Shown here in pieces: positions 6,964 to 19,524 of a DNA stretch of 49,951 nt (its first letter is position 1; every line of letters begins with the position of its first letter). Source of the stretch: a virus (Duplodnaviria; Heunggongvirae; Uroviricota; Caudoviricetes); IMG/VR virus record IMGVR_UViG_3300021403_000003, positions 1 to 49,951 of that record. One strand, written 5' to 3'. The notes under the pieces were generated by a model. The model saw only the letters and a program-made list of their open reading frames with translations, was not told where the DNA came from and did not search any database. Both the position numbers and the translations under genes were made by a program.

Positions 6964-7554
6964 GTGATCAGTTTTGACATCGAAACTCTTGGAGTAAGCT
7001 CAGAAGTTGTTGTGCTTTCAGTTGGTATTGTGAAATTTGAGCTTTTCAATGCCAATACTGCTTGGCAACAGACTGATCCAAATGCATTAAACAACATCTA
7101 CAAGAAGATGTTGGATGATGCTTTGTTTGTCAAATTTGAGGTTGATGAACAGGTCGCGAAATATGGCCGTAAGGTTGAAAAGGAAGCGATTGATTTCTGG
7201 AAAGATCAATCTACAAGAGTAATCGAAAAAAGCTTTCGTCGTAATTTTAACATTGATTGTAAAATAATAGATGGAGTTATTAAAATAGCAGAATTTGTTA
7301 ATGGTGATCCAAATTTTTGGGCTCGTGGATCACTGGATCAGATTGTATACGATAGCCTTTGTCGAGCAGCTGGAAAACCCCTCGTAACTGAATACTGGTG
7401 TTGGTCAGATTATCGCACAGCTATCAATTTGACCAAAGAGACAGCCCGTAGAGGTTATTGCGACATCCCTGGTTTTGATCGTTCTTTGGTTGTGAAGCAT
7501 GACCCTGTTCACGACGCAGCCTATGATGTGATGATGTTGTTGTACGGTAAATAA
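6964..7554 (+). CDS. dexA: DexA-like 3'-5' exonuclease (DEDDh)
   Basis: SFDIETLG, WARGSLD, DYRT, HDPVHDAAYD. Confidence 0.8.
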   Translation: MISFDIETLGVSSEVVVLSVGIVKFELFNANTAWQQTDPNALNNIYKKMLDDALFVKFEVDEQVAKYGRKVEKEAIDFWKDQSTRVIEKSFRRNFNIDCKIIDGVIKIAEFVNGDPNFWARGSLDQIVYDSLCRAAGKPLVTEYWCWSDYRTAINLTKETARRGYCDIPGFDRSLVVKHDPVHDAAYDVMMLLYGK

Positions 7555-7568
7555 TACAAGGATATATC

Positions 7569-8009
7569 ATGATTCAGTTGAATAGAAAATCTTGGCATTT
7601 CTGGCTTGCATCCAAATTTGGTGACTATTGTTATAGTGAACCTGAATATCAAAACGTGTGTACATATACACGTTGCTTCCTTAAGGGATTGATTGTATTC
7701 ATAATTTCTACAATTTTGACTGTCTTTATGGGTGCAATATTCCTGGGATTGCCACTTTTTGCCTTGGGTTGGTTGATCGGTTACATGTTTGGATTTTTCT
7801 CACTATTTGATCCAAAAAGTCGATTGGCAGACACAGTCTTTTCTGGATTTTTGTTGTCCCTGATGTGGATTGTTTTTGGTATCATTTTTGGGATTGTGAA
7901 ATTTTGGAAAAATGGTAAGAAATTTGCTGCCGTTAAACAACCATCATTTCTGAAAGTTGCGTATAGGTCTTGGAAGGATAAATATTGTATCAAGGTTGAA
8001 TTTAAGTGA
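7569..8009 (+). CDS. hypothetical membrane protein
   Basis: Two long hydrophobic segments. Confidence 0.6.
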   Translation: MIQLNRKSWHFWLASKFGDYCYSEPEYQNVCTYTRCFLKGLIVFIISTILTVFMGAIFLGLPLFALGWLIGYMFGFFSLFDPKSRLADTVFSGFLLSLMWIVFGIIFGIVKFWKNGKKFAAVKQPSFLKVAYRSWKDKYCIKVEFK

Positions 8010-8299
8010 TTTCACTGTTTGATTTGATGAATGGATGTTTTGAAGGGTATGGTGCCTTCGGAGCTTGGTTAAACGTTATCAAGCTTCGAAAAGATAGAGA
8101 AATCAAGGGAATAGTTTGGCAATTGATGATAGGATGGTGGGCTTGGGGAATTTTCAACCTTTTCTATTACCCACATCTCGATCAGTGGTTTTCATTTAGT
8201 GCAGGTTGTGTGTTGGTTACAGGTAATGCAGCTTGGTTGATTACATGGCTAAAGATTCTGAAGATACGCGCACGTAGCTTAAATGTGAAGAGCGGCTGA
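8006..8299 (+). CDS. small three-helix membrane protein (PQ-loop/SemiSWEET-like, tentative)
   Basis: Three hydrophobic segments, about 97 aa. The last 32 nt overlap the tRNA-like gene. Confidence 0.5.
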   Translation: MISLFDLMNGCFEGYGAFGAWLNVIKLRKDREIKGIVWQLMIGWWAWGIFNLFYYPHLDQWFSFSAGCVLVTGNAAWLITWLKILKIRARSLNVKSG

Positions 8300-8341
8300 C
8301 TCTAAATCGGCGAGATGTGGGCACTCAATCCATCGTGCGCT
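8268..8341 (+). tRNA. amber-suppressor-like tRNA (anticodon CUA) with atypical T-loop
   Basis: Acceptor GCGCACG(8268-74)/CGTGCGC(8334-40); T8 A9; D-stem GCTT/GAGC; anticodon stem GCTGA/TCGGC with loop CT-CTA-AA; 5-nt variable loop; T-stem GTGGG/TCCAT with non-canonical loop CACTCAA; U73; no encoded CCA (TCA follows). Confidence 0.75.
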
Positions 8342-8351
8342 TCAATAGAGG

Positions 8352-8762
8352 GTGATCATGATAAACAAGTTGGTTGATAAATTTCTTTCCTGGCCATTGC
8401 CAAAAAGTGTTTGTTCTGACTTGTGCGTCAGTGATTCTAATTACAAGTTCCCAAGATATGGGACAAGTCTGCTTTCGGCTGAGGAAGCTAAACAGATGCT
8501 AGAATATGTATTACAGGAGAACAACGTGAGTGAAGTGAATTTGAAGAAGGGTGATCTGACTGACGAAGTTTGGAGAGAATATGATTTCTCAGGCCGAGTC
8601 TATCGTATTGAAGAGCCAGTGGAACTTTATTTTCGTCCAGGTGGTTCCACTCATCGAATCGTTGATGGTAAGGGAGTGGTTCACTGTGTTCCAGCTCCTG
8701 GTGTCAATGGTTGTGTTGTTCGTTGGAGAGTCAAACCTGGTAAAACTCATGTTCAGTTCTAA
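8352..8762 (+). CDS. hypothetical protein (possibly two fused small phage proteins)
   Basis: 136 aa ORF; internal AGGAG SD (8515-8519) before an in-frame GTG at 8526. Confidence 0.55.
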   Translation: MIMINKLVDKFLSWPLPKSVCSDLCVSDSNYKFPRYGTSLLSAEEAKQMLEYVLQENNVSEVNLKKGDLTDEVWREYDFSGRVYRIEEPVELYFRPGGSTHRIVDGKGVVHCVPAPGVNGCVVRWRVKPGKTHVQF

Positions 8763-8771
8763 GAGGTAATT

Positions 8772-9359
8772 ATGTGGTCTAAACTAAAAGCTTGGATAGT
8801 TGCTCATGCACCATTCAATTTGGCACCAGGAGCAATTGCTGCCGTGTTGTTCCTTATTTTCTTGATTCTTGTTGGTTTGTGGTTTGGTAAAGCACATGCT
8901 GCAACTGTGTTTGATGAAAAACCATATGTTCAATTTAATGTTGGTTCAACAGTGGTTCGTGGTGTTACACCAACATTTGGAATTGATTTGGTAGAACCAA
9001 CGAACCTTATCAAAGGTTCTGATATTGTTGTTGGGATGTTTGCTGTAGGTCGTTCTACTTGGAAGAACTGTCCAATTGATGGTAAAGGAAATCCTCAGTG
9101 TGAATCCAATTTGGTTTGGAGAGCAATTTTTGAAGATACAGTTTATGGAAATTCCTTTGGTGCTGTTCGTGCTGGAATTGGTATTTCTTACATGACCAAT
9201 TATCTTCCTTACAATGGCGGAAATGTTAATGCCAATCTTCAATTGGCTTATGAATTCTATAGAATCCCTATCACACTGACATATACTCATTTCTCATGCG
9301 GCGGATCTTGTAGTCCAAATGCTGGTAGAGATTTGTTGTTGTTGGGTTGGAGATTCTAA
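8772..9359 (+). CDS. outer-membrane beta-barrel, PagL (lipid A 3-O-deacylase)-like
   Basis: Signal/TM segment ending AHA-A; alternating strands; C-terminal YTHFSCGG..PNAGRDLLLLGWRF resembles the PagL H-x-S...PN.G motif; terminal Phe. Confidence 0.6.
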   Translation: MWSKLKAWIVAHAPFNLAPGAIAAVLFLIFLILVGLWFGKAHAATVFDEKPYVQFNVGSTVVRGVTPTFGIDLVEPTNLIKGSDIVVGMFAVGRSTWKNCPIDGKGNPQCESNLVWRAIFEDTVYGNSFGAVRAGIGISYMTNYLPYNGGNVNANLQLAYEFYRIPITLTYTHFSCGGSCSPNAGRDLLLLGWRF

Positions 9360-9605
9360 TTGTGGAAGTTCTTTGGACGCAAACCTGAAAAACCTTCTGG
9401 GAAATTTCAGTATCTTGGTCATTCTGTTCAAGCAAATAAGATTGATCTTTGGGTGAAATTTCCTGATGGTTCTACAGATTTGTTCCGTATTCCACTTGAA
9501 AAAGGTCTACTTGATCAATTTGAGATTGCGAAACAAGCAGAAAGACAAGGTATTAGAGTTATTGGTGAATTTATTGATGCCCAACTGCGGTTGGGAATTA
9601 TATAG
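9360..9605 (+). CDS. hypothetical protein
   Basis: 81 aa ORF abutting the previous stop; ends in TAG. Confidence 0.5.
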   Translation: MWKFFGRKPEKPSGKFQYLGHSVQANKIDLWVKFPDGSTDLFRIPLEKGLLDQFEIAKQAERQGIRVIGEFIDAQLRLGII

Positions 9606-9614
9606 GAGATTGAA

Positions 9615-10007
9615 ATGAAATTGTTACCATGGGTTACAGCTCTATTTTTGACGACAGCATTTGCTCAATCACAGAGTGATGAGCCACCAACAAGTCCGAT
9701 TCAAGCACAAATCTTGGGAAAAATTTTGTCAGGTAAAAAGATTGAATCAGATCCAGCACATAAAGTGCCAAATCAAGACGATCAACCTTTGACAGCTGTG
9801 ATTGTTACACAATGCAATCAAGTTGTTGCTGTATATTTCACAATGTCAAGTGGGAAATTGCTTCGTTTTGGAAAGGAAGCAGGAGTATCAGCCGAAACCC
9901 TTGTTGATTTGGCCTACAAGTCAGCTAAGTACAGTGAAAGAATTGAAGTTTCCTGTAATGGACTTGGTGAAACAGCCAGAGAACCACATTCCAGAAATGA
10001 CACATGA
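9615..10007 (+). CDS. secreted hypothetical protein
   Basis: Signal peptide MKLLPWVTALFLTTAFA; AGGAG SD; two Cys. Confidence 0.65.
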   Translation: MKLLPWVTALFLTTAFAQSQSDEPPTSPIQAQILGKILSGKKIESDPAHKVPNQDDQPLTAVIVTQCNQVVAVYFTMSSGKLLRFGKEAGVSAETLVDLAYKSAKYSERIEVSCNGLGETAREPHSRNDT

Positions 10008-10014
10008 GATTTAA

Positions 10015-10092
10015 ATGAAAGAAGATTACGAAGGTTTGTAGATTCCTGACACATATGTTCATTATGTTGCACGTGGTCCGCCATTCCCTTAA
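10015..10092 (+). other. candidate leader uORF with in-frame amber codon and RGPP motif
   Basis: ATG 10015 reads MKEDYEGL-[TAG 10039-41]-IPDTYVHYVARGPPFP-TAA, in the gap upstream of the Pth2-like gene. Confidence 0.4.
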
Positions 10093-10135
10093 ACTATTGA
10101 GCATCCCGTTCAAATCAAGTTTAAGGAGTCGAAAA

Positions 10136-10852
10136 ATGTTGGATTATAAGAAAGTTTGGTCTCACTTTCGTGTAGAAGGAACAGTGACACCATCACATGT
10201 TGTTGAGTTTTGTATCGTCAAGGCTGTATATGCATCTCGAGGAAATGAAAAGAAAGCCGAGAAGCTTCTCATTCAGTATCTATCAAAGGCTTTCACGCCC
10301 ATCACCCGTAAAAATAGGTTGGAAAATGGAGAGCATGAGTATTCATGCTTACAAAGAGCTATTCAAGGTATAAACAAATCATATGTTCTTGGAGTGCCAT
10401 CAATAGCACTCGAAAATTATGAGCTTCTTTATCATAACCTTCTTGATCATTTGACGTATCGTAAAGTTGCAGAATACAGTAAACGTAAGTACATGTATTT
10501 CTTTGTTCGTCAAGATATACCTAGAGAATATCAATTGGTTCAAACTGCTCATGTTGCATTGGTGAATGGTTGGCAAATCGCATTGGATAAAAGTATGGAT
10601 CCTGTTGATCCAAACAATATCTATTTCACTGTTGTTGGTGTACCTAATCTTGCTGCATTGAAGAAAGTAAGAGAAGATTTGCGTCATTTAGAAATTACTC
10701 ATAGTTTGTTTATAGAGCCTGATTTAGGAGATGAAGCAACATCTATTGCAACGTATCCTATCAAGGTTAATGAAAGAGGAAGACTTTTGACTTACAAGTT
10801 ATTGAGTTTTACTCTTACTGAGTTAGACCCTAAGATAGATCAAGTGGCCTAA
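10136..10852 (+). CDS. protein with C-terminal peptidyl-tRNA hydrolase type 2 (Pth2)-like domain
   Basis: KYMYFFVRQDI..EYQLVQTAHVA ... FTVVGVPNL..L ... FIEPDLGDEATSIATYP matches the Pth2 pattern (VRxDL, AQxxHA, EPD, TAIA). AAGGAG SD supports ATG 10136. Confidence 0.65.
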   Translation: MLDYKKVWSHFRVEGTVTPSHVVEFCIVKAVYASRGNEKKAEKLLIQYLSKAFTPITRKNRLENGEHEYSCLQRAIQGINKSYVLGVPSIALENYELLYHNLLDHLTYRKVAEYSKRKYMYFFVRQDIPREYQLVQTAHVALVNGWQIALDKSMDPVDPNNIYFTVVGVPNLAALKKVREDLRHLEITHSLFIEPDLGDEATSIATYPIKVNERGRLLTYKLLSFTLTELDPKIDQVA

Positions 10853-10855
10853 ATA
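10849..10855 (+). promoter_or_regulatory. T4-type late promoter (CTAAATA) at the 5' end of the tmRNA gene
   Basis: TAAATA variant of TATAAATA; the tmRNA base-pairing begins 2 nt downstream. Confidence 0.55.
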
Positions 10856-10856
10856 G

Positions 10857-11200
10857 GTCACGAAATGGTAGTAAACTGTTGATTAAAGGTGTTCAAGACG
10901 CGGGTGCAATTCCCGCCAGGTCCACCAACAGCACACTTGGCCAGAGGTCATGACTGGTCGTTTCTTGATGATGCCGAAAGGCTAACTGGAGTGTGCTTCT
11001 GATGGGCCTGACTAGCTTCGATTGGGCAAGTAATAACCCAATAGCTACCGGATTGGTGACTGCCCTAAGCAGCACAAAACGTTAAATGCAAACGATACTG
11101 CATTCGATGAAGATGAAGGCTTTGTAGAGCTCGCTCTCGCTGCCTGATTCTGAATCTGGGGTTTTGGTGGCTGTCCTTATCACCCAATCAGCCACCACTT
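10857..11200 (+). ncRNA. ssrA: circularly permuted (two-piece) tmRNA
   Basis: The 3' piece comes first: GAC, T-arm GCGGG-TGCAATT-CCCGC, CAGGTCC-A-CCA (ends 10927). The 5' piece starts GGGCCTG at 11004, giving a 7-bp acceptor stem with G3.U70. Long P2 helix between pieces: TGTTCAA/TTGGGCA, ATTA/TAAT, CTGTTG/CAATAG, GGTAG/CTACC, GTCAC/GTGAC. Tag ORF present. The 3' end is approximate (after hairpin 11166-11196). Confidence 0.92.
11088..11147 (+). other. tmRNA tag reading frame ANDTAFDEDEGFVELALAA
   Basis: Resume codon GCA preceded by TTAAAT; AND start and LAA end typical of proteobacterial ssrA tags. Confidence 0.9.
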
Positions 11201-11217
11201 ATATCATGAGGAAGTTA

Positions 11218-11445
11218 ATGGCTACAAGTGCTGATAAAGATCAATTTTCAATCATGATTGAAACAAGGGCCATCAATGATAAATGTAGTCATATTGATGC
11301 CATAATTTCTCATTGTGAGGAAACTGGGTTAGAAATTGAAGTAGTAAAATCTCTTATCAATATTCAACTAAAAAAGAAGATCGAAGCAGAAGCTCGTACC
11401 TTGAGGATGATCAAGGGAGGAAATGCTTCGAGGTTGCCAGTATGA
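11218..11445 (+). CDS. gp33: late promoter transcription coactivator gp33
   Basis: FSIMIE...IDAII.HCEE.GLEIE.VKSLI...LKKKIEAEA..L; GAGGA SD before ATG 11218; T4 gene 33-59-32 synteny. Confidence 0.85.
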   Translation: MATSADKDQFSIMIETRAINDKCSHIDAIISHCEETGLEIEVVKSLINIQLKKKIEAEARTLRMIKGGNASRLPV

Positions 11446-11783
11446 TTGAATTTGAACCAGAAAATCCTTTCAAAACTACATATGGCTTTGAAAGAAGACA
11501 AAATCCGAGGACAAGAGCAAATCTCAACGTTTATTTGGTCACAACTGATCAAAAAAAGAATGAAAGAAAGATAATCAAATTTCAGTCAATAAATATCAGT
11601 CGTTCTGGATTGCTGATTGATAGTGGTGATTTTCCATTCAGAAAGAACTCTTTTGTTGATTTGGCGTTTATGGCACCAATACAAGAAAATGTAAGTCGTT
11701 TGTATTACATGGATGCTTTTGTTCAACATACTGGCAATGGTAAGACAGGTTTCTCGATGACCAAGAAAGGTCCGAAGCCTTGA
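11442..11783 (+). CDS. PilZ-domain protein (putative c-di-GMP receptor)
   Basis: ERRQNPR (RxxxR) followed by INISRSG (D/N-x-S-x-x-G); 113 aa single domain. Confidence 0.75.
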   Translation: MIEFEPENPFKTTYGFERRQNPRTRANLNVYLVTTDQKKNERKIIKFQSINISRSGLLIDSGDFPFRKNSFVDLAFMAPIQENVSRLYYMDAFVQHTGNGKTGFSMTKKGPKP

Positions 11784-12406
11784 GAGAAGTTTCTACTCTT
11801 CAAGAAAAAGCAGGTGGATTTGTTGCTTGGAAATTATTCACAGCTGTAAGAATCCACTATATGAGTGATTCTTATGACTTCTTCAAGTATAATGGTGAAA
11901 CTAAAGCAGCAGCTTCTTGGGAAGTTTTCAAGAATCATCGAGACAAATACAGTTTTGTGAAACTTGGTAGGATGTATGTCAGGGAGGAAATGATCTATTT
12001 CCTTGGAATAAATTTTTATCATAAACCAAACCTTTGGATTCATGATTTGTTCTTTGATGAAGCTATCCAAATTTATAAATCATGGAAAGAACGACAAATA
12101 CAAAACAATCGATTGCAAGAACTTACAAAGCTTGTATCAAGTGGGTTTAAGGAACTGATTGCAATCCATAAAGAGGAGCACCCAAAACTTTTGGGAAGGA
12201 TGTTGGTGAATGATGTTCACCATGATATCATTTGTTTGGTTGATAAATCAGTGAAATTTACAGATGAATGGTTGAATGCATATCCAACTGATCCAATCGT
12301 TCATGGTACAGTTAACAGATTAAAGAAATATAGCAGATTTGTTCAGAACATTATACATTACGATACAACAGCATACGACAAGATAATTGAGGAGTATTAT
12401 AAATGA
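11780..12406 (+). CDS. gp59: helicase loader gp59
   Basis: LFTAVRIHY.SDSYDFFKYNG, RDKYSFVKL; synteny. Confidence 0.85.
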   Translation: MREVSTLQEKAGGFVAWKLFTAVRIHYMSDSYDFFKYNGETKAAASWEVFKNHRDKYSFVKLGRMYVREEMIYFLGINFYHKPNLWIHDLFFDEAIQIYKSWKERQIQNNRLQELTKLVSSGFKELIAIHKEEHPKLLGRMLVNDVHHDIICLVDKSVKFTDEWLNAYPTDPIVHGTVNRLKKYSRFVQNIIHYDTTAYDKIIEEYYK

Positions 12407-13377
12407 CAAGAGTATCACCAGCTAAGTCAAGACCAAGATCGTCTTTGTTTAATAGTGGAAGTAATGCAGCAGATGGTTATGCAGATGATCATTCAGTCGA
12501 AAATGATGTTTTGTTTGGTGATCAACGTATGTGGTCTGTTTCTGGTGATAGTTATTATGCTTGTGATAAAGCTGAAGATTCTTTGCCAGCAGGTCAGTAT
12601 CTACCTGTATACAGCGAACAAAGAGGTATCTATGTTGTCAAAAAGCAAGTGAATTTGGATGATTTGCTTGTCCTCCCTGATAACAAAACAACTTATGTAT
12701 TAGACGCAATTAATCATTTTTGGTCCAAGCAGGATAAATTCCGTCAACATGGATTCCTTTGGAAGCGTGGTATGCTTTTGTGGGGTCCTCCTGGTTCAGG
12801 AAAAACTAGCTGTATTCAACAATTGTCCAAACAAATTATCGACAAGGGTGGCATTTCTGTTTACTGTACTGTTCCTAACGTGACAGCTGAAGCACTCCGT
12901 ATTATTCGCCGCATTGAACCAACACGTCCAATTGTGGTGATGATTGAGGATATCGATGCTGTTATTTCACGTCATGGTGAACCTGATTTATTGGCATTAT
13001 TGGATGGTGAACTTCAGATTGACAATGTTGTGTATATTGCAACAACCAATTATCCAGAGGAATTAGATCCTCGTTTTGTTCAACGTCCATCTCGTTTTGA
13101 TGAAGTTATCTGTATTGATATGCCAAGCAAAGAAGCACGTAAGACTTACTTGGCTGCAAAGAATCCACGATTGATTGTTAATCCAGAAGAATTGGATCGT
13201 TGGGTTGAATTGACTGAAGGTTTCTCTATAGCAGCAATGAAGGAAGTTGTCGTTGCCGTTGAGTGTTTGGATCGTACAGTTGAATCGACAGTGGAACGTA
13301 TTAAAGAAGTGATGGCCAAGAGACCAACTTCTGAAGATGCACAAAATCCTTTCAAAAAGAAAGTTGGATTTAGCTGA
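12403..13377 (+). CDS. AAA+ ATPase
   Basis: RGMLLWGPPGSGKT (Walker A), VMIEDID (Walker B), LLDG, ATTNYPEELD...RPSRFD (second region of homology). Confidence 0.9.
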   Translation: MTRVSPAKSRPRSSLFNSGSNAADGYADDHSVENDVLFGDQRMWSVSGDSYYACDKAEDSLPAGQYLPVYSEQRGIYVVKKQVNLDDLLVLPDNKTTYVLDAINHFWSKQDKFRQHGFLWKRGMLLWGPPGSGKTSCIQQLSKQIIDKGGISVYCTVPNVTAEALRIIRRIEPTRPIVVMIEDIDAVISRHGEPDLLALLDGELQIDNVVYIATTNYPEELDPRFVQRPSRFDEVICIDMPSKEARKTYLAAKNPRLIVNPEELDRWVELTEGFSIAAMKEVVVAVECLDRTVESTVERIKEVMAKRPTSEDAQNPFKKKVGFS

Positions 13378-13472
13378 AAGTTTAGCTTATTCCATACTAA
13401 ATAATCCACTATATAATGATATATTGAATAAAACATACAGCACATACGACAAAGCATACGAGGTATATAACA

Positions 13473-14420
13473 ATGAGCGATTTCGCAAAACTCCGTCAAA
13501 AATCTTCCATTCAAAATTTGACAACTGCACTGAATTCACAGAACAAATTCAGCCGTGATGAACGTTATTGGGAACCAACTGTTGACAAGGCTGGAAATGG
13601 CTTTGCTGAGATTCGTTTCCTTCCAACACCTCCACAAGATAATGCAGATGGTGATGCACCATTTGTCACAATGTTCAGTCATTCTTTCAAAGGACCAACA
13701 GGTCAGTGGTACATTGAAAATTCATTGACCACCATTGGTTTGGATGATCCTGTTTCTGAACTGAATAGCAAACTCTGGAATAGTGGAGTTGAAGCAAACC
13801 AAAACAAAGCACGTGATCAAAAACGTCGCCTCGGTTACATCAGTAACATTCTTGTTGTGAATGATCCAGGCAATCCTGCTAATAATGGAAAGGTGTTCTT
13901 GTTCCGTTATGGTAAGAAAGTCATGGATAAGATTAAGGACAAGAATGGAACTGGAAGTGAAGTTAAACCAGAGTTTCAAGATCCAGATGATATCAAATTC
14001 AATCCATATAACCCATGGGAAGGTGCCAATTTTAAATTGAATATTCGTCAGGTTGATGGTTTCCGTAACTATGACAAGTCTGAGTTCCGTACCCCAAGTC
14101 AACTTGCAAAGACTGATAAGGAAATTGAGGTAATTTGGCGTCAACAATACAGCCTGAAAGCTGAAATTGCATCTGATAAATTCAAGAGCTACGATGAATT
14201 GAAGAAGAAATTAGAACGTGTTTTGGGTCTCACTAGCACAGGCACTTCATCTTCTACATCAAGTGCTCGTAGAACTGCAGAAGAAGTCAGCCATGAAGAT
14301 TCTGATCGTGAAGAACCTTTGGCAGCTTCTGTTGCAGCTGAAGTAAATACTGCAACAAAATCAACTACGAGTTCAGATGACGATGAATTCGCAGATTTTG
14401 CAAAATTGGCAGATGCTTAA
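13473..14420 (+). CDS. gp32: single-stranded DNA-binding protein gp32
   Basis: DERYWEPTVDKAGNG.AEIRFLP, WYIENSLTTIG..DPV, VFLFRYGKK, GANFKL, NYDKSEF; acidic tail. Confidence 0.95.
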   Translation: MSDFAKLRQKSSIQNLTTALNSQNKFSRDERYWEPTVDKAGNGFAEIRFLPTPPQDNADGDAPFVTMFSHSFKGPTGQWYIENSLTTIGLDDPVSELNSKLWNSGVEANQNKARDQKRRLGYISNILVVNDPGNPANNGKVFLFRYGKKVMDKIKDKNGTGSEVKPEFQDPDDIKFNPYNPWEGANFKLNIRQVDGFRNYDKSEFRTPSQLAKTDKEIEVIWRQQYSLKAEIASDKFKSYDELKKKLERVLGLTSTGTSSSTSSARRTAEEVSHEDSDREEPLAASVAAEVNTATKSTTSSDDDEFADFAKLADA

Positions 14421-14424
14421 AAGC

Positions 14425-14453
14425 TTTACTTCTTGAAATGGTCAGCTTATAAT
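14425..14453 (+). promoter_or_regulatory. sigma70-like early promoter overlapped by an inverted repeat
   Basis: TTTACT-N17-TATAAT; arm GGTCAGCTTA (14440-49) pairs with TAAGCTGACC (14473-82). Confidence 0.65.
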
Positions 14454-14565
14454 GAAACTGTAGGTTGAGTTGTAAGCTGACCAAACGAGGAGTCTAACAT
14501 GCTTCCACGTAAGTAATAATTGAAATTTTCAAATTAAATATATAGTTGAACGCAGATAAAATGGG

Positions 14566-14676
14566 CATTCTGCTTACTATAACAAAAGTTGAAACCTTCT
14601 GCGGGTGAATTTTGTTATAGCTCAGAATGGAATAGATAGAAATGGGCCACGGCACGTCAGGGTGAGTGGTCCATTT
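14566..14676. repeat. two tandem long inverted repeats (structured RNA, terminator or origin candidate)
   Basis: CATTCTG..CTATAACAAAA/TTTTGTTATAG..CAGAATG (14566-14629) and AAATGGGCCAC/GTGGTCCATTT (14640-14676), the latter followed by a T-rich run. Confidence 0.65.
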
Positions 14677-14709
14677 ATTTTTGGCATTGATTTTCTTGGA
14701 AATTCTCCG

Positions 14710-14738
14710 CTTTACTTTTAGAATTCTTACAGTATATT
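14710..14738 (+). promoter_or_regulatory. sigma70-like early promoter
   Basis: CTTTAC-N17-TATATT, followed by a GAGGAG SD and ATG 14766. Confidence 0.5.
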
Positions 14739-14765
14739 GATGTCTACTGAAAAGAGGAGACTATC

Positions 14766-15074
14766 ATGTACGACCGCGACACCAAGTACTTTTATCTGAT
14801 TCATGGTAATACTGATATTTGTCAGGTCAGTGAATTCACTACCGATTTGACAGATGAACAGGCTCTGGAAGTCATCTATGCATTGAGTCAGAATCTGGAA
14901 GATGATAATTGGACAGTTGATGTCAAATACAAATATGGTTGTAAAGTCATCATGCGGGATTCAGTCCCACATCGTTCAACGGCTGTTGGTGATATGGTTT
15001 TGGTCAAACAAGGTGAGCATGAGAAGTTGTATCGGTGTGAAGTTGCGGGTTGGTTTCTTTTGCGCAACAAGTAG
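14766..15074 (+). CDS. hypothetical early protein
   Basis: Strong SD; HRSTAVGDMV motif seen in small phage proteins. Confidence 0.65.
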   Translation: MYDRDTKYFYLIHGNTDICQVSEFTTDLTDEQALEVIYALSQNLEDDNWTVDVKYKYGCKVIMRDSVPHRSTAVGDMVLVKQGEHEKLYRCEVAGWFLLRNK

Positions 15075-15076
15075 AT

Positions 15077-16873
15077 TTACAATCTTGAGATGTTTGAATA
15101 TCCAGCTGGATCATCAAACATCTGACTTGTCAATCGACTGATACTGGATTCTGGGTTCCTGGTTGAAATTTGAACAGCCAGGGATCCACTTTTCTTTGAT
15201 GATGGCATCACTTTTGTCGTGTTACCTCCCTTTATAACCAATACATTTGGTTGTGATTGCTGAGCAGATTTCATTTCAGTGTTCTGAGCACTTGCTGCTG
15301 CAACCCTTTCAGGAAGTTGTTTAGGAACAGGTGCAACCTGTGGGGTTTTGATTTCAAGTTTTTTGTATAGATCAGAATGTTCTTTAACGTATTCTTGTTC
15401 TTTTTTGGAGTACCCACCACGCGTATCACCTGTCATTGCACCAACGAGATGCTTATAATCATCAGGTAATTCATCATATGTTGTTTGTTTGCCATTAAGA
15501 ACAAATTTACCTTGACCCAAAGCTTTCAAACCATATTTCTGTAATGCTTCGGCAGGTTTCATTGCGCGATCTGTTTCATACTTGGCCAGTCTATCAATAC
15601 CATAGGCTCCAGCTGCTGTGATGGCAACAGCACCTGCACCAGCTACAACTTCAGCAGTCCCAACTCCTTCGAGCAGGTTTTTACCAAGACCCTTCAATGT
15701 ATCACCGATTTTTACACCGAGCTTTGCAGCAAAACGAGCCATTGTTGAACCAAATCTCTTCAATACATCCCAAATTTTACCAACACTGTTGAGAATGGTT
15801 TTGACTGTGTCGAAGATTGGTTTTATCTTTTTCCATAATCCAGCAATAGCAGCTGAGATCATTCCTAATATTCCCATGCCCATACCACCATGCTGCTTAT
15901 GCTTTATATCATCCAGTTCCTTCAATATTAGATCAAGTTTGTCATTGATTGCCTTTGCTTCTTTTTCGTGTACGACTTCTGTTTGAACAGTTTGAGCCTT
16001 TTCTTGATCTTCATTTTTCTGAGGAACAGGGAGTTTTTCCTGTGGACTTGTTTGAATTTGTGGTTGAGAGAACTTCTCATGAAGATCAGCGGCCATAAGT
16101 GGAGCAATTTGTTTTGGAACCTTATCTACAGTTTCTCCCTTTATTTTCTTTGGTTTTTCAATTTTTTCAGCTTTTGGCCTCTCAAACTTATAACCAAGCT
16201 TCTCTAATGGTTTTACAGCCGTCCTCTTGAATGAGCTTGCGAATGCAGAAGTGAATTTTTTGACAGCAGAAGATTTACGTTGAAGTTTTTCAGGAATTTT
16301 CTTACCTTGAGCTTCAAGTGTTTTCTTAAGATCTTCAAGAGTGAGTTTTACAGCCTTGATATCTTTACTAGTTGTTTCTTCTCGTTGATCTTCTTTCTTA
16401 GATTCAACAGATGATCTCTTTATCAACTTAGCCGCAAGATCTTTACCAACGAGGTTCTTGATAAAATTTCTAGCAAATCCTGTATTAGGCTTGGATGGAA
16501 TACCTGCGTTCGTAGGTTTTTCTTGATCTGTTACTGGTTTTTGTTCTTGGGAGCCTGCGATCGTAGGTTTTTGTTCTGGTGTAGTTGATACTGTGCTCTC
16601 AGTTGCAGGTGCAGGAGTTTGTTCCTTGGCTTCAGGTGTAACAGATTTTTGTCCTACAGCTTGTTTTGCTCTTTGTACAGATTGTCTCTTGTTGTCATTA
16701 TTCTTTGTCAAAGCATTTTTGGCAACTGGAACTGATTTTGCAGGCATATGTTCATCTAACAGTTTTTGAACTGATGGGGGTACTTCCTTGCCTTGCTTTT
16801 TGAAGTTATCTGCAAGCTCAGTTAATGAAACACCACCTGGAGTTTTGCCTGTTGGTCTTGATTTCTTTGCCAT
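15077..16873 (-). CDS. tape measure / tail length determinator (gp29-like)
   Basis: Long Lys/Glu-rich low-complexity N-half, amphipathic Gly/Ala helices; position downstream of the gp54-gp26-gp51 block. Confidence 0.6.
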   Translation of the reverse strand: MAKKSRPTGKTPGGVSLTELADNFKKQGKEVPPSVQKLLDEHMPAKSVPVAKNALTKNNDNKRQSVQRAKQAVGQKSVTPEAKEQTPAPATESTVSTTPEQKPTIAGSQEQKPVTDQEKPTNAGIPSKPNTGFARNFIKNLVGKDLAAKLIKRSSVESKKEDQREETTSKDIKAVKLTLEDLKKTLEAQGKKIPEKLQRKSSAVKKFTSAFASSFKRTAVKPLEKLGYKFERPKAEKIEKPKKIKGETVDKVPKQIAPLMAADLHEKFSQPQIQTSPQEKLPVPQKNEDQEKAQTVQTEVVHEKEAKAINDKLDLILKELDDIKHKQHGGMGMGILGMISAAIAGLWKKIKPIFDTVKTILNSVGKIWDVLKRFGSTMARFAAKLGVKIGDTLKGLGKNLLEGVGTAEVVAGAGAVAITAAGAYGIDRLAKYETDRAMKPAEALQKYGLKALGQGKFVLNGKQTTYDELPDDYKHLVGAMTGDTRGGYSKKEQEYVKEHSDLYKKLEIKTPQVAPVPKQLPERVAAASAQNTEMKSAQQSQPNVLVIKGGNTTKVMPSSKKSGSLAVQISTRNPESSISRLTSQMFDDPAGYSNISRL

Positions 16874-17094
16874 TATTTCTTATTGATCCTAGATGGTTTT
16901 CTACCTTTATTTTTGTTAGATATTGCTTCCAATTGCATTCTCAAATTTTCTTCCTCAACCTCTTTTGCTAACAAATTCAAAAGAATATCCCTTTCCCAAG
17001 GGATCATATCATCAAAGACTCTTGGATCTTTGTTATGATGATGGAAGAGCGTGAATGTTGTGAGAAAGTATTGCCTTAGCCCTTCGTCGGGCAA
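16873..17094 (-). CDS. gp51: baseplate hub assembly catalyst gp51-like ORF; probably expressed as a -1 frameshift extension of the upstream gene
   Basis: LRQYF.T.F.LFHHH...DDMIPWERDILL.LL...EEEN motif. No ATG start; the TTG lies inside a stem; the frame is open back to the GGATTTT site. Confidence 0.75.
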   Translation of the reverse strand: MPDEGLRQYFLTTFTLFHHHNKDPRVFDDMIPWERDILLNLLAKEVEEENLRMQLEAISNKNKGRKPSRINKK

Positions 17095-17112
17095 TACTGC
17101 TAGGTAAAATCC
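17067..17112 (-). promoter_or_regulatory. candidate -1 programmed ribosomal frameshift signal
   Basis: Minus strand: G GAT TTT (17112-17106), spacer ACCTAGC, stem AGTATTGCC / 14-nt loop / GGCAATACT. Confidence 0.65.
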
Positions 17113-17849
17113 TCAAGACCCTCCAATGTTATTTTGTGATGAAATCCACACTTTGAACAAGTCTTCTCAACTTTTTGTTGGATTACGGGACAGTTTTCGA
17201 AGAATTTTTCAACCTGTGCATATTTATCTTGACTGAGTGATTCTATGAAATTGATCATTTCATCCAAACTCACATCATCGCCTTTGGTGATAGTGTCATT
17301 ATCAAAGACATAATCAACACACATTGCGGCCAATTTGATATCTAAATCACCAGTTGATTTCGCCAATTGTTGAGTCATCTCGAATGTTGGTAATTTCATT
17401 ACCATTCCAATGTTTTCCCCTTCCAAGAAGATTTTCTTATTGACATCTTTGTTGATTACAGGAACTTGTAACAAATCAATATCGAATTCCAAAAGCATGC
17501 CACATTCTTCGCTTTGTGGGACATTTGGATTCTTTGGTGGATTGACCGGTATTTTATTGTTGCATTTGAAAAATAGAGGTGTTTTTTCACCACTAGAACG
17601 AGCCCAAATGTTCAGGAATAACCATTCCAGATCAACCATAGGGAGTTGATCAACATCTATTTCTTTGTTTACCAGGCAATTTCTCAGAATTTGTTTGAAT
17701 GCATCAACAATTGATTCTGTTTCTTTGCTTTCCTTGGCCATCATCAAAATCTTACTTTCCTTTACACTGAAAGGAACAAATGATATAGGTTCAGAACGGG
17801 AAAGGACATTAGCCTTATAGATTGGCCGGTCTATCACTGGCAATGGCAT
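17100..17849 (-). CDS. gp26: baseplate hub assembly protein gp26-like
   Basis: MPLPVI..P.Y, FVPFSVKESKILMMA, DLEWLFLNIWARSSGE, CSKCG....ITLEGLEDF. Confidence 0.8.
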   Translation of the reverse strand: MPLPVIDRPIYKANVLSRSEPISFVPFSVKESKILMMAKESKETESIVDAFKQILRNCLVNKEIDVDQLPMVDLEWLFLNIWARSSGEKTPLFFKCNNKIPVNPPKNPNVPQSEECGMLLEFDIDLLQVPVINKDVNKKIFLEGENIGMVMKLPTFEMTQQLAKSTGDLDIKLAAMCVDYVFDNDTITKGDDVSLDEMINFIESLSQDKYAQVEKFFENCPVIQQKVEKTCSKCGFHHKITLEGLEDFT

Positions 17850-17864
17850 AACGAAAACCTCAGA

Positions 17865-18581
17865 TTACAATGTGATATTATTGAGAAGATTTTGAGCAGT
17901 TCTTGCGGATTGCTTAACAATTTGAGCTTGACCTGGTGTTAACTTCGATGAAGATTCCAATACTCCAACCAAAGCATTAGTGAAATTGTTGATCAATCCT
18001 CCACCTCGTTGAACAGGTGTTGATGCACCCACTGCACCATCTGCAGCTGTCAACCATTTGGTGTAAACCATTGTGACTGTGACTCGATGAATACTATCAT
18101 CACTCCAGTTTAGGTTCAATGCACTAACAGAAATTGGCCATGCTTCATCAAGTTGGGCGAAATATGTACGATTACCAACTTGATCATATTGGTTGACAGT
18201 CACACTGGATTCATATTGAGGATTACCAAGATTATCAAGACGGTAATTGACTAGTCCTGTAGCTTTTGGAATACAAAAATCAGTCCACATATCAAAAAAC
18301 TGTTTTTCTAACATTTGACCTGTGCAATAAAAAGTGAAAGTCACAGGACTGTAGGAGATGTGATGAGGAATACGTTTAATGAAAGCATGATGACGATATT
18401 CAATTGGAGTGATATCAATCCCTGGTAACTCAGAAGCTTCGCATGTTAATGCCAATTCTACTGGGCCATAAGGACCCGTCAATTGTTGAGGAAGAGCAAA
18501 CACAACATCGAATTTGTCTGCTTTTGCAACTTCATTGGCATTCTCAATGTTTGATAAGAAATCATAAACGTTGAAAGCCAT
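17865..18581 (-). CDS. gp54: baseplate tail-tube initiator gp54 / tube-like protein
   Basis: AKADKFDV, CEASELPG, YSPVTFTF, FFDMW, EAWPISVS.LNL.W, RVTVTM.Y. Confidence 0.75.
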   Translation of the reverse strand: MAFNVYDFLSNIENANEVAKADKFDVVFALPQQLTGPYGPVELALTCEASELPGIDITPIEYRHHAFIKRIPHHISYSPVTFTFYCTGQMLEKQFFDMWTDFCIPKATGLVNYRLDNLGNPQYESSVTVNQYDQVGNRTYFAQLDEAWPISVSALNLNWSDDSIHRVTVTMVYTKWLTAADGAVGASTPVQRGGGLINNFTNALVGVLESSSKLTPGQAQIVKQSARTAQNLLNNITL

Positions 18582-19100
18582 TTATTTTGCACCTTTGTAA
18601 GGAGTTGATTTTTGCCATTGTGCGGTAGGCATTTTGATCACTTTGTAATAGTTGACAGGATTTATCTCCAAGAACCTTGATCGCACGTGATCTAAAAGAT
18701 AATGTTTGATGCATGGTTTTATATCATCATAAATGCTAAGTTTCTTCATGAAACCATAACTGGCTTGTAAACGTTTTTGTGGTTCGTATTCCATATATTT
18801 GAATAATTCATCAAGAATGATTTTACGAACACGTTGCGTGACATAGTGAAGATTCCATCCAAGGAAACCTCCTTTGGCAGAATCAGCTGGAATACACAAT
18901 GGGAACTTGTCCCAATATGGTAATTGTGCTTTCAATTTAGCATCATAATAAAAATGACAAAGTACACCTAAATGAGGAGTAGTGCTGTAGGTTCCGAGTT
19001 TTCTTGTGTCTTTGAACATAAATACAACCATGAGAAATGCGTTGTATTTAGTGTGATTCGCAGATGCCAACTTATCATCAAGGAAGGTTCGTTCCATCAC
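18582..19100 (-). CDS. gp2: DNA end protector gp2 (real start probably ATG 19031 or 19019)
   Basis: FYYDAKLK..LPYWDKFPL, GFLGWNLHY, PCIKHYL..HVRS; a late promoter lies inside the annotated 5' part. Confidence 0.85.
   Translation of the reverse strand: MMERTFLDDKLASANHTKYNAFLMVVFMFKDTRKLGTYSTTPHLGVLCHFYYDAKLKAQLPYWDKFPLCIPADSAKGGFLGWNLHYVTQRVRKIILDELFKYMEYEPQKRLQASYGFMKKLSIYDDIKPCIKHYLLDHVRSRFLEINPVNYYKVIKMPTAQWQKSTPYKGAK
19018..19051. promoter_or_regulatory. face-to-face late promoters for gp4 (+) and gp2 (-)
   Basis: ATAAATA on + at 19018-24; CTAAATA on - at 19051-45. Confidence 0.5.
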
Positions 19101-19498
19101 ACCCTGAGAAATATCAAGGGGATCCTAGCAATATCTTCTATAGATCAAGTTGGGAATTTAAACTCATGATTCGATTTGATCATGATGTAAATATTGTTCA
19201 ATGGAGCAGTGAGGAATTGATCATTCCATATAAATCACCTGTTGATGGAAAATTTCACAGATATTTTCCTGATTTTAAGATCAAAACATCTCTTAATAAG
19301 ATCATTCTCATTGAAGTTAAACCTCTTTGCAAAGTTCAACAACCTGTTAAACCAAAGAAAATTACTAAGAGATTTCTGAAGGAAGTAATGGAGTGGGGTG
19401 TGAATGATGCTAAATTTAAAGCTGCAAAGGAATATTGTGCGGAAAGAGGATGGTTATTTTTGATCATGACAGAAAAAGAGCTTGGTATAGTAACATAA
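19064..19498 (+). CDS. gp4: head completion nuclease gp4
   Basis: QGRF.P.HPEKY.GD...I.YRSSWE, WSSEE..IPY.SPVDG.FHRYFPDF, IEVKP, NDAKF.AA..YC. Confidence 0.92.
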   Translation: MPTYHQGRFVPSHPEKYQGDPSNIFYRSSWEFKLMIRFDHDVNIVQWSSEELIIPYKSPVDGKFHRYFPDFKIKTSLNKIILIEVKPLCKVQQPVKPKKITKRFLKEVMEWGVNDAKFKAAKEYCAERGWLFLIMTEKELGIVT

Positions 19499-19501
19499 AT
19501 A
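19495..19501 (+). promoter_or_regulatory. late promoter
   Basis: ATAAATA upstream of gp48. Confidence 0.5.
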
Positions 19502-19524
19502 GTTGACTCAACATCGGTAACCTT

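What the first reader, a model, noticed from the sequence alone, without database searches (positions are those of the whole stretch)
8268..8344. Amber-suppressor tRNA with Gly-like acceptor in a standard-code phage
All four stems form and the anticodon loop is CT-CTA-AA. G1-C72, C2-G71, G3-C70 and U73 match bacterial tRNA-Gly acceptor identity. The T-loop (CACTCAA) and G53.U61 are non-canonical and CCA is not encoded. All long conserved genes are intact in code 11, so TAG is not globally recoded. The tRNA may give regulated, partial readthrough of selected ambers, or act as a decoy.
Basis: partly seen in the sequence, partly recalled or inferred. Interest (0 to 1): 0.8.

Follow-up and report, generated by a model that had tools for sequence, protein, structure and literature searches.

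The report
Phage amber-suppressor tRNA gating a stalling leader
A soil T4-like phage that uses the normal genetic code carries a real UAG-reading tRNA with an unusual elbow, and its conserved target appears to be a tiny leader 1.7 kb downstream, where a UAG must be read through before a ribosome-stalling Arg-Gly-Pro-Pro motif can switch on a peptidyl-tRNA-hydrolase-like gene.

Summary
Window 8268-8341(+) is a 74-nt cloverleaf with anticodon CUA. It scores 37.7 bits on Rfam tRNA (threshold 29). ARAGORN misses it in bacterial mode because the D-loop lacks GG and the T-loop is CACUCAA.

It is not a decaying pseudo-tRNA. Ten related phage contigs carry a CUA tRNA in the same gene neighbourhood. 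On nine of these sequences 96.8% of stem cells pair and 13 of 21 pairs show compensatory changes, while CUA never varies. Against the syntenic contig L045 the tRNA is the best-conserved DNA (89.7% versus 65-77% in genes).

The genome uses code 11; TAG is not recoded. Every lineage with the tRNA also has a mini-ORF before a Pth2-fold gene, usually followed by a permuted tmRNA. This leader has one or two in-frame TAGs, then RGPP (HDPP or KPP in two distant lineages; RAPP on an unrelated contig), then a hairpin hiding the gene's ribosome-binding site. In the RGPP codons only third positions vary, so the peptide after the TAG is translated.

The Gly-like identity is not conserved: the discriminator is U, G or A among orthologues. 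The inserted residue is unknown.

This scan met the same design earlier in other phages. I found no published description.

The parts
8268..8341 (+). tRNA gene with anticodon CUA (8302-8304), discriminator U at 8341 and a non-canonical elbow (D-loop AAATGTGAA, T-loop CACTCAA). The next bases, 8342-8344, are TCA, so CCA is not encoded.
   Evidence: Rfam 37.7 bits; ARAGORN -mt cloverleaf; covariation over 9 orthologues; 89.7% identity to L045 against 65-77% in flanking genes.
8006..8299 (+). 97-aa hydrophobic ORF whose last 32 nt overlap the 5' half of the tRNA. Its TGA stop lies in the anticodon stem.
   Evidence: ORF list; no family match. Whether it is a real gene is not settled.
10015..10092 (+). 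Leader mini-ORF: ATG 10015, in-frame TAG 10039-10041, RGPP codons 10072-10083, TAA 10090-10092. This is the proposed target of the CUA tRNA.
   Evidence: Sequence. The same design occurs in 10 related lineages, and all in-frame stops are TAG. In the RGPP codons only third positions vary.
10086..10128 (+). Hairpin pairing the 3' end of the leader (10086-10101, core CCTTAAAC 10087-10094) with 10114-10127, which covers the Shine-Dalgarno AAGGAG (10123-10128) of the next gene.
   Evidence: RNAfold and duplexfold: -12 to -20 kcal/mol in 7 lineages with different sequences, z -2.3 to -6.2; also present in L081 and L203.
10136..10852 (+). 238-aa gene under the leader's control: an N-terminal helical domain plus a C-terminal Pth2 (peptidyl-tRNA hydrolase 2) fold.
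   Evidence: AlphaFold2 pLDDT 77.9. The top 15 Foldseek PDB hits are Pth2-fold proteins (archaeal Pth2 entries, their structural-genomics homologues, human Bit1) plus Atu0240 of unknown function; TM by target 0.49-0.76, best E 1.9e-4. Pfam PTH2 only reaches E 0.15 in one homologue.
10815..11201 (+). Circularly permuted two-piece tmRNA directly after the Pth2-like gene. It is a neighbour in the module, not part of the tRNA.
   Evidence: RF04321 125.3 bits and RF01850 93.3 bits. Kept in L045, L049, L052, L071, L072 and L078.

Best explanation
The element is a functional phage-encoded amber-suppressor tRNA. Its conserved and probably main substrate is the UAG in a short leader ORF at 10015-10092.

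Proposed mechanism:
- Ribosomes start the leader and meet UAG at codon 9.
- If release factor 1 wins, they terminate. The hairpin between the leader's 3' end and the Shine-Dalgarno of the next gene stays closed, and the Pth2-like gene is not translated.
- If the charged CUA tRNA wins, the ribosome reads on ten more codons into Arg-Gly-Pro-Pro.
- There it arrests with the first Pro codon in the P site.
- The arrested ribosome covers the 5' arm of the hairpin, which begins 14 nt after the Arg codon.
- The ribosome-binding site is freed and the Pth2-like peptidyl-tRNA hydrolase is made.

The tRNA therefore acts as a trans-acting key, and the leader as a meter of UAG readthrough.

Shown here: the tRNA structure and its selection, the invariant CUA, the co-occurrence with the leader, coding-type conservation downstream of the TAGs, the conserved hairpin geometry, the Pth2 fold, and standard code in the rest of the genome.

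Inferred: expression, 5' cutting by RNase P, trimming to U73 and CCA addition by host enzymes, charging (residue unknown), the arrest itself, and the physiological signal. My best guess for that signal is timing, or homeostasis of suppression versus ribosome-rescue capacity.
For: - tRNA gene: Rfam above threshold.
- Relatives: ten related contigs (L045, L049, L052/L074, L071, L072, L073, L078, L081, L203, besides the window) carry a CUA tRNA in the same neighbourhood.
- Covariation: 96.8% of stem cells paired, 13 of 21 pairs with changes on both sides, 0 of 500 shuffles as good. CUA and A37 are invariant while all five anticodon-stem pairs vary.
- Within the non-canonical sub-family: window versus L078 differs by two compensatory acceptor pairs, and window versus L045 changes G53.U61 to U53-A61. 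L045 and L078 encode U73-CCA.
- The tRNA is the best-conserved DNA in the 12-kb syntenic stretch with L045.
- Leader: all 15 in-frame stops upstream of the Pro-Pro motif in the 10 lineages are TAG. No ATG, GTG or TTG follows the last TAG in the leaders inspected. In the RGPP codons 0 of 8 first and second positions vary and 4 of 4 third positions vary.
- Hairpin: an anti-SD:SD duplex is present in every lineage with different sequences, and the Arg-to-AUG distance is fixed at 64 or 67 nt.
- Co-absence: two homologous Pth2-like loci, L079 and L080 (themselves near-identical in gene order, so effectively one lineage), lack the tRNA, the leader and the tmRNA together.
- An unrelated contig, L062, has a CUA tRNA with the same odd D-loop 500 nt downstream of a leader with two TAGs and RAPP.
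- Code 11: TAG ends 30 of 257 crude ORFs, and reading TAG as sense opens frames less than reading TGA or TAA as sense.
Against: - There is no expression, charging or suppression data.
- The window's T-loop lacks T54, psi55 and A58, and the D-loop lacks G19. These contacts normally serve RNase P, the CCA-adding enzyme and the ribosome, so efficiency could be low.
- CCA is not encoded here (TCA), unlike nearly all of this phage's 32 other tRNAs.
- The single-sequence fold is not a cloverleaf.
- The 5' half overlaps an ORF.
- The leader's ATG in the window has only a weak SD-like GAG upstream.
- The lineages are related, so counts of co-occurrence overstate independence.
- 30 ORFs end in TAG, so an efficient suppressor would extend them. 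The extensions are mostly short.
Confidence: 0.7

Rival explanations
1. It is a general, low-level amber suppressor: either an early step toward TAG recoding, as proposed for standard-code relatives of recoded phages, or a tool that extends host or phage proteins ending in UAG. In this reading the leader is only a side sensor that scales rescue capacity (the Pth2-like enzyme and tmRNA) to the damage caused by readthrough.
For: - Standard-code phages that have acquired suppressor tRNAs are described (bioRxiv 10.1101/2021.08.26.457843).
- The phage invests in ribosome rescue: a tmRNA, an ArfB-like RF-1-domain ORF and a Pth2-fold protein.
- TAG stops are rare in long ORFs: 4 of 90 ORFs of 200 aa or more.
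Against: - No gene with a conserved in-frame TAG was found other than the leader.
- The tRNA and the leader are linked in every lineage, even where the tmRNA is not nearby (L081, L203).
- This rival is compatible with the main explanation rather than exclusive of it.
Confidence: 0.15
2. The window's copy is a degenerating tRNA-like remnant. It may be kept only as an RNA-processing signal, having lost decoding function when its T-loop, D-loop and CCA changed.
For: - Non-canonical T-loop and G53.U61, no GG in the D-loop, TCA instead of CCA, ARAGORN negative, and an unremarkable MFE.
- It has the lowest Rfam score of the orthologues: 37.7 bits against 54-66.
Against: - The same elbow type is kept in L045 and L078 with compensatory stem changes and encoded CCA.
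- It is the best-conserved DNA versus L045.
- The same D-loop and T-loop pair recurs in a Val-like tRNA inside another phage's tRNA array (L061) and in another CUA tRNA (L062).
- The leader in the window still keeps its TAG, RGPP and hairpin. That combination would lock the Pth2-like gene off if the tRNA were dead.
Confidence: 0.1
3. It is a decoy or sentinel for a host anticodon nuclease or other tRNA-targeting defence, rather than a decoder.
For: The neighbourhood in relatives holds RNA-ligase and phosphoesterase genes, which are typical of tRNA repair.
Against: - A decoy does not explain an invariant CUA together with conserved in-frame TAGs in a translated leader.
- No nuclease target motif was identified.
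Confidence: 0.03

Closest known systems
Phage-encoded suppressor tRNAs of stop-codon-recoded phages (crAss-like, Lak, Agate and others; code 15 TAG to Gln; Borges et al., bioRxiv 10.1101/2021.08.26.457843; Peters et al., PMC9523058)
   Same: A phage-borne tRNA with anticodon CUA that reads UAG in a standard-code host. Readthrough is used as a regulatory gate. Non-canonical tRNA features hamper detection.
   Different: Here no structural or lysis gene carries in-frame TAG and the genome is code 11 throughout. The only conserved target found is a 25-codon regulatory leader. The tRNA is linked to a Pth2-like gene and a tmRNA, not to a release factor or synthetase 'code change module'.
RAPP/RGPP-type ribosome arrest peptides that unmask a downstream ribosome-binding site (ApdA, ApdP, ApcA, CruR, Streptomyces RGPP uORFs; SecM with RAGP) (PMC12992588, PMC10951233, PMC10987492)
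   Same: A small uORF ending in Arg-Gly/Ala-Pro-Pro, an SD-sequestering hairpin that starts just 3' of the arrest site, and a downstream gene in the same operon.
   Different: The leader has no signal peptide or membrane segment, so there is no pulling-force release. Access to the arrest motif is gated by one or two UAG codons and a dedicated tRNA. It is encoded by a phage, and the controlled gene is a Pth2-like hydrolase.
prfB (RF2) autoregulation through an in-frame UGA
   Same: An in-frame stop codon early in a reading frame serves as a meter of decoding versus termination efficiency.
   Different: prfB uses a +1 frameshift and senses RF2. Here the competitor of RF1 is a dedicated suppressor tRNA, and the output is arrest-driven SD unmasking. 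This comparison rests on established knowledge and was not tested here.
Laboratory amber suppressors (E. coli supE, Su7/trpT, T4 psu tRNAs)
   Same: A class-I tRNA body with CUA. Host GlnRS or LysRS often charge such tRNAs through U35 (established knowledge; Borges et al. also cite glutaminylation of TAG suppressors).
   Different: Those are single mutations of resident tRNAs. This is a conserved natural gene family whose body resembles Arg or Ile tRNAs. The window's sub-family has a remodelled elbow.

Membership tests
Elongator tRNA (Rfam RF00005) | Cloverleaf with 7/4/5/5-bp stems, a 7-nt anticodon loop, U33 and a purine at 37 | tested here: met
   Covariation supports all four stems.
Elongator tRNA (Rfam RF00005) | Score at or above the curated gathering threshold | tested here: met
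   37.7 bits against 29.
Elongator tRNA (Rfam RF00005) | Canonical elbow: G18 G19 in the D-loop, T54-psi55-C56 and A58 in the T-loop, G53-C61 | tested here: not met
   D-loop AAATGTGAA, T-loop CACTCAA and G53.U61. This is why ARAGORN's bacterial mode fails. Six of the orthologues do have canonical T-loops.
Elongator tRNA (Rfam RF00005) | 3' CCA encoded or added; mature, charged RNA present | not testable with these tools
   TCA follows U73 in the window, whereas L045, L049, L071, L072, L073, L078, L081 and L203 encode CCA. No RNA run holds the sequence.
Amber suppressor tRNA | Anticodon CUA, conserved among orthologues | tested here: met
   Invariant in 9 aligned orthologues plus L203.
Amber suppressor tRNA | An in-frame UAG in a reading frame that is under coding selection downstream of it | tested here: met
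   Leader 10015-10092 and its homologues; RGPP codons vary only at third positions.
Amber suppressor tRNA | Measured insertion of an amino acid at UAG | not testable with these tools
   Needs a reporter assay and mass spectrometry.
Bacterial tRNA-Gly identity set | G1-C72, C2-G71, G3-C70 | tested here: met
   The same triad occurs in Arg, Ile, Val and His tRNAs.
Bacterial tRNA-Gly identity set | U73, kept among orthologues | tested here: not met
   U in the window, L045, L078 and L049; G in L052, L072, L073, L081 and L203; A in L071.
Bacterial tRNA-Gly identity set | C35 and C36 in the anticodon | tested here: not met
   The anticodon is CUA, giving U35 and A36.
Code-15-type recoded phage | Many late genes carry in-frame TAG; ORFs are fragmented under code 11 | tested here: not met
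   92% coding under code 11. Reading TAG as sense adds less open frame than reading TGA or TAA as sense.
tRNA-Pyl (ARAGORN's label for CUA) | 6-bp anticodon stem, 3-nt variable loop, very small D-loop | tested here: not met
   5-bp stem, 5-nt variable loop and 9-nt D-loop. pyl genes were not searched for.
RAPP-like arrest-peptide regulators (the tRNA's target) | R-[AG]-P-P near the end of a small uORF, plus an SD-hiding hairpin reached by the stalled ribosome | tested here: met
RAPP-like arrest-peptide regulators (the tRNA's target) | N-terminal secretion or membrane signal that releases the arrest | tested here: not met
   The leader is 25 codons long with no hydrophobic segment.
RAPP-like arrest-peptide regulators (the tRNA's target) | Arrest demonstrated | not testable with these tools
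   Needs toeprinting or in vitro translation.

The most novel reading that the evidence does not exclude
The CUA tRNA is not a general suppressor. It is a dedicated, orthogonal regulatory RNA whose only substrate is the leader UAG. Together with the arrest leader and the Pth2-like hydrolase it forms a self-contained readthrough homeostat: the hydrolase, through its extra N-terminal domain, would act back on the arrested peptidyl-tRNA or on the suppressor itself. In this reading the remodelled elbow of the window's sub-family is an adaptation for orthogonality, for example escape from host tRNA-targeting enzymes or recognition by a phage partner.
Probability: 0.25. Interest if true: 0.9.

Novelty: new variant of a known kind. 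Interest (0 to 1): 0.8.

Why it matters
Suppressor tRNAs annotated in standard-code phages usually have no known target; for example, the announcement for phage Summit (PMC9022506, listed) says none was identified. Here a conserved target is visible. It is a stop-codon-gated ribosome-arrest leader, which would be a natural translational switch operated by a tRNA.

If this is confirmed, three things follow:
- It gives a function to this class of orphan suppressor tRNAs.
- It extends arrest-peptide regulation to phages and to a new input, the balance between UAG decoding and RF1.
- It offers a compact natural part for synthetic biology, namely a tRNA-dependent ON switch.

The window's tRNA also shows that a tRNA lacking the canonical G19-C56 and T54-A58 elbow contacts can stay under selection in a bacterial virus. 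This matters for tRNA gene finders, which miss it.

Tried and rejected
- ARAGORN in default mode on the window and on the genome did not find the element. Lowering its threshold gave a wrong 89-nt model.
- The single-sequence MFE fold was uninformative.
- blastn of 7500-12000 against the phage collection returned only a 43-nt chance hit.
- The search for related loci with the two flanking small proteins gave a non-syntenic domain match or nothing.
- In the 17-mer anticodon-arm scan, 15 of 16 hits were a coding motif in another gene.
- A scan with a tmRNA pattern added only a truncated contig, L068.
- Looking for genes split by TAG found only chance in-frame neighbours that have their own starts, and one apparent case caused by a tandem duplication.
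- Pfam and a PDB sequence-profile search for the downstream protein found nothing significant. The fold search was needed.
- MAFFT followed by RNAalifold on the leader-SD region misaligned the helix. Per-sequence duplex folding was used instead.
- Promoter and terminator scans and a T4 late-promoter motif search gave nothing above chance near the tRNA.
- Sequencing runs: no RNA holder is listed.
- tblastn against cultured phages found only Pth2-domain homologues at 27-34% identity and no cultured carrier of the full module.
- I considered that non-canonical-elbow tRNAs go with a single TAG in the leader (window, L045, L078). L062 has the odd D-loop with two TAGs, so I do not rely on this.
- An origin from tRNA-Gly(UCC), tRNA-Arg(UCU) or tRNA-Trp was considered from similarity but cannot be decided.

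Full report
**What the window is.** The window is the first 49,951 b of a 176,865-b IMG/VR virus record that CheckV rates as complete. GC content is 39.5%. Earlier notes of this scan call it an uncultured soil T4-like phage. Neighbouring genes in relatives fit that description: gp32, gp59-like, T4 RNA ligase and baseplate genes. ARAGORN finds 32 tRNA genes at 158.6-172.3 kb, and none has CUA.

**Observation.** The features are:
- a 7-bp Watson-Crick acceptor stem;
- U8 and A14;
- D-stem GCTT/GAGC with a 9-nt D-loop, AAATGTGAA, that lacks GG;
- a 5-bp anticodon stem and the loop CT-CTA-AA;
- a 5-nt variable loop;
- T-stem GTGGG/TCCAT with G53.U61, and T-loop CACTCAA;
- discriminator U, followed by TCA.

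Rfam's tRNA model matches at 37.7 bits against a threshold of 29. ARAGORN misses it in bacterial mode and draws it in mitochondrial mode. The MFE fold of the single sequence is not a cloverleaf (z -0.64). The case for a real tRNA therefore rests on comparison with relatives.

**Relatives.** Three routes found orthologues:
- An exact scan for the anticodon arm found one true homologue, L045. It has 7 differences in 77 nt and unrelated flanks. It changes G53.U61 to U53-A61 and U13.G22 to C13-G22, and it reads TCCA where the window reads TTCA.
- L045 is syntenic with window 8260-20340. The tRNA is the best-conserved DNA there, at 89.7% against 65-77% in genes.
- Homologues of the PagL-like protein next door (8772-9359) and of the 238-aa protein further downstream led to L049/L050, L052/L074, L071, L072, L073, L078, L081 and L203.

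Each of these contigs has a CUA tRNA in the same neighbourhood. All but L078 are called by ARAGORN in its normal mode, because their T-loops are canonical.

On nine aligned sequences 96.8% of stem cells pair and 13 of 21 pairs show changes on both sides. None of 500 shuffles reaches this, and sliding the partners gives 29-50% pairing. CUA and A37 are invariant although all five anticodon-stem pairs vary. A tertiary pair also covaries: G19-C56 in L071 against A19-U56 in L049, L072 and L073 (read).

The window, L045 and L078 form a sub-family with the remodelled elbow. Window and L078 differ by two compensatory acceptor pairs. The same D-loop and T-loop pair occurs in a Val-like tRNA inside another phage's tRNA array (L061/L063) and in another CUA tRNA (L062). 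The elbow is therefore a recurrent, selected variant and not decay.

**Genetic code.** A crude gene set of 257 ORFs covers 92% of the genome under code 11. Stops are TGA 125, TAA 102 and TAG 30. Reading TAG as sense opens far less frame than reading TGA or TAA as sense. The few TAG-joined frames are neighbours with their own starts, or alternate-frame artefacts. TAG is not globally recoded.

**The target.** The mini-ORF starts at ATG 10015 and has TAG at 10039-10041, RGPP at 10072-10083 and TAA at 10090-10092.
- The same leader stands before the homologous gene in every lineage that has the tRNA. It carries one TAG in the window, L045, L078, L073 and L203, and two in L049, L071, L072, L074 and L081.
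- Every in-frame stop before the Pro-Pro motif is TAG, 15 in all.
- No ATG, GTG or TTG follows the last TAG in the leaders I inspected.
- Several leaders have GGAGG-type ribosome-binding sites before their ATG.
- Across eight RGPP leaders, none of the eight first and second codon positions of R-G-P-P varies, while all four third positions do. This is the signature of a translated peptide downstream of the TAG.
- Distant lineages replace RGPP with HDPP (L081) or with KPP followed by a stop (L203).
- The unrelated contig L062 has two TAGs and then RAPP.
- The window has TAT (Tyr) where the relatives with two TAGs (for example L071, L072 and L074) have their second TAG. This is only a weak hint about the inserted residue.

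**The switch.** In all seven lineages tested, the RNA that starts 9-14 nt after the first base of the Arg codon pairs with the Shine-Dalgarno region of the next gene. Duplex energies are -12 to -20 kcal/mol and z-scores against shuffles are -2.3 to -6.2. The helix sequences differ between lineages, and the Arg-to-AUG distance is fixed at 64 or 67 nt. L081 and L203 show the same arrangement.

In the window, CCTTAAAC (10087-10094) pairs with GTTTAAGG (10120-10127), which overlaps AAGGAG (10123-10128). [quoted passage not shown] A ribosome so placed, with its P site on 10078-10080, would cover the SD-pairing arm and free the ribosome-binding site. That step is an inference from geometry.

**The controlled gene.** Window 10136-10852 encodes a 238-aa protein. 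Sequence methods give nothing significant. An AlphaFold2 model with pLDDT 77.9 has a C-terminal domain whose top 15 PDB matches are Pth2-fold proteins (archaeal Pth2 entries, their structural-genomics homologues and human Bit1), plus one protein of unknown function, Atu0240. TM-scores by target are 0.49-0.76 and the best E-value is 1.9e-4.

A permuted tmRNA follows directly in most lineages, but not near the gene in L081 or L203. Two loci with more distant homologues of the gene, L079 and L080, lack the leader, the tRNA and the tmRNA together. They have nearly the same gene order as each other, so they count as about one lineage. The genome also has an ArfB-like RF-1-domain ORF and no SmpB.

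**Amino-acid identity.** The triad G1-C72, C2-G71, G3-C70 with U73 fits E. coli tRNA-Gly rules, which I take from established knowledge. However:
- The discriminator is U in four lineages, G in five and A in one.
- The Gly anticodon determinants are absent.
- Among bacterial tRNAs that begin with the family's common 5' half, 19 are Arg, 11 Ile, 3 Val, 2 His and none Gly.
- The closest of the phage's own tRNAs is Gly(UCC), but only weakly.

Host GlnRS or LysRS commonly charge CUA tRNAs through U35 (established knowledge). The residue is unresolved.

**Comparison and novelty.** Suppressor tRNAs in phages are known mainly from recoded genomes, and some standard-code relatives also carry them. Arrest leaders with RAPP or RGPP are known from bacteria. 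Five literature searches found no description of a stop-codon-gated arrest leader served by a phage tRNA.

This scan has noted the same design before in other phages. I did not test those notes and do not count them as evidence.

I class the tRNA as a new variant of a known kind. It is a natural suppressor with a dedicated regulatory target, and in this window it has a non-canonical elbow.

**Limits.** Everything is comparative and in silico. Expression, maturation without encoded CCA, charging, suppression and arrest are all untested. The lineages are related, so the counts are not independent events. The physiological signal that the switch reads remains a guess.

Noticed in passing
window 10815-11201: A circularly permuted two-piece tmRNA sits in a phage (RF04321 125 bits). 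The tag read by hand is ANDTAFDEDEGFVELALAA. Relatives keep it, with tags ending LALAA, PLAA or MALAA. No SmpB gene was found in the genome.
   Followed up: partly
genome G000:C1 166714-167001 (outside the window; locus L082): A 132-aa ORF with an RF-1 (GGQ) domain lies next to the tRNA cluster. It is ArfB-like in size. This is a third ribosome-rescue-type function in the phage.
   Followed up: no
window 8006-8299: A hydrophobic 97-aa ORF runs 32 nt into the tRNA gene. If RNase P cuts at 8268, the ORF's mRNA would lose its stop codon.
   Followed up: no
L061 13264-13340 (same as L063 1404-1480): A Val-like tRNA (anticodon UAC, C33, A73, CCA) sits in another phage's tRNA array. It has exactly the window's odd D-loop AAATGTGAA and T-loop CACTCAA. 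GYG in the D-loop and CUC in the T-loop may pair.
   Followed up: no
L062 about 9720-10350: An unrelated metagenomic contig has a leader with two in-frame TAGs and then RAPP, followed by a 146-aa ORF and a CUA tRNA with the same odd D-loop.
   Followed up: partly
L049 3320-3394: The orthologous CUA tRNA has C33 instead of the near-universal U33 (anticodon loop CCCTAAA). L061 also has C33.
   Followed up: no
L203 9581-10000: A distant T4-like contig (177.9 kb) has a fully canonical CUA tRNA (G73, CCA). About 250 nt downstream is a minimal leader, M-R-TAG-L-K-P-P-stop, with an SD-hiding hairpin before its Pth2-like gene. No tmRNA is nearby.
   Followed up: partly
genome G000:C1 about 80110-80200 (outside the window): A perfect tandem duplication of about 40 nt lies inside a small gene. 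It may be an assembly artefact or a recent slip.
   Followed up: no
window 8772-9359 and 11442-11783: A PagL-like (lipid A deacylase) protein is conserved at 88-90% identity in relatives, which is much higher than its neighbours. A PilZ-domain protein lies just after the tmRNA.
   Followed up: no
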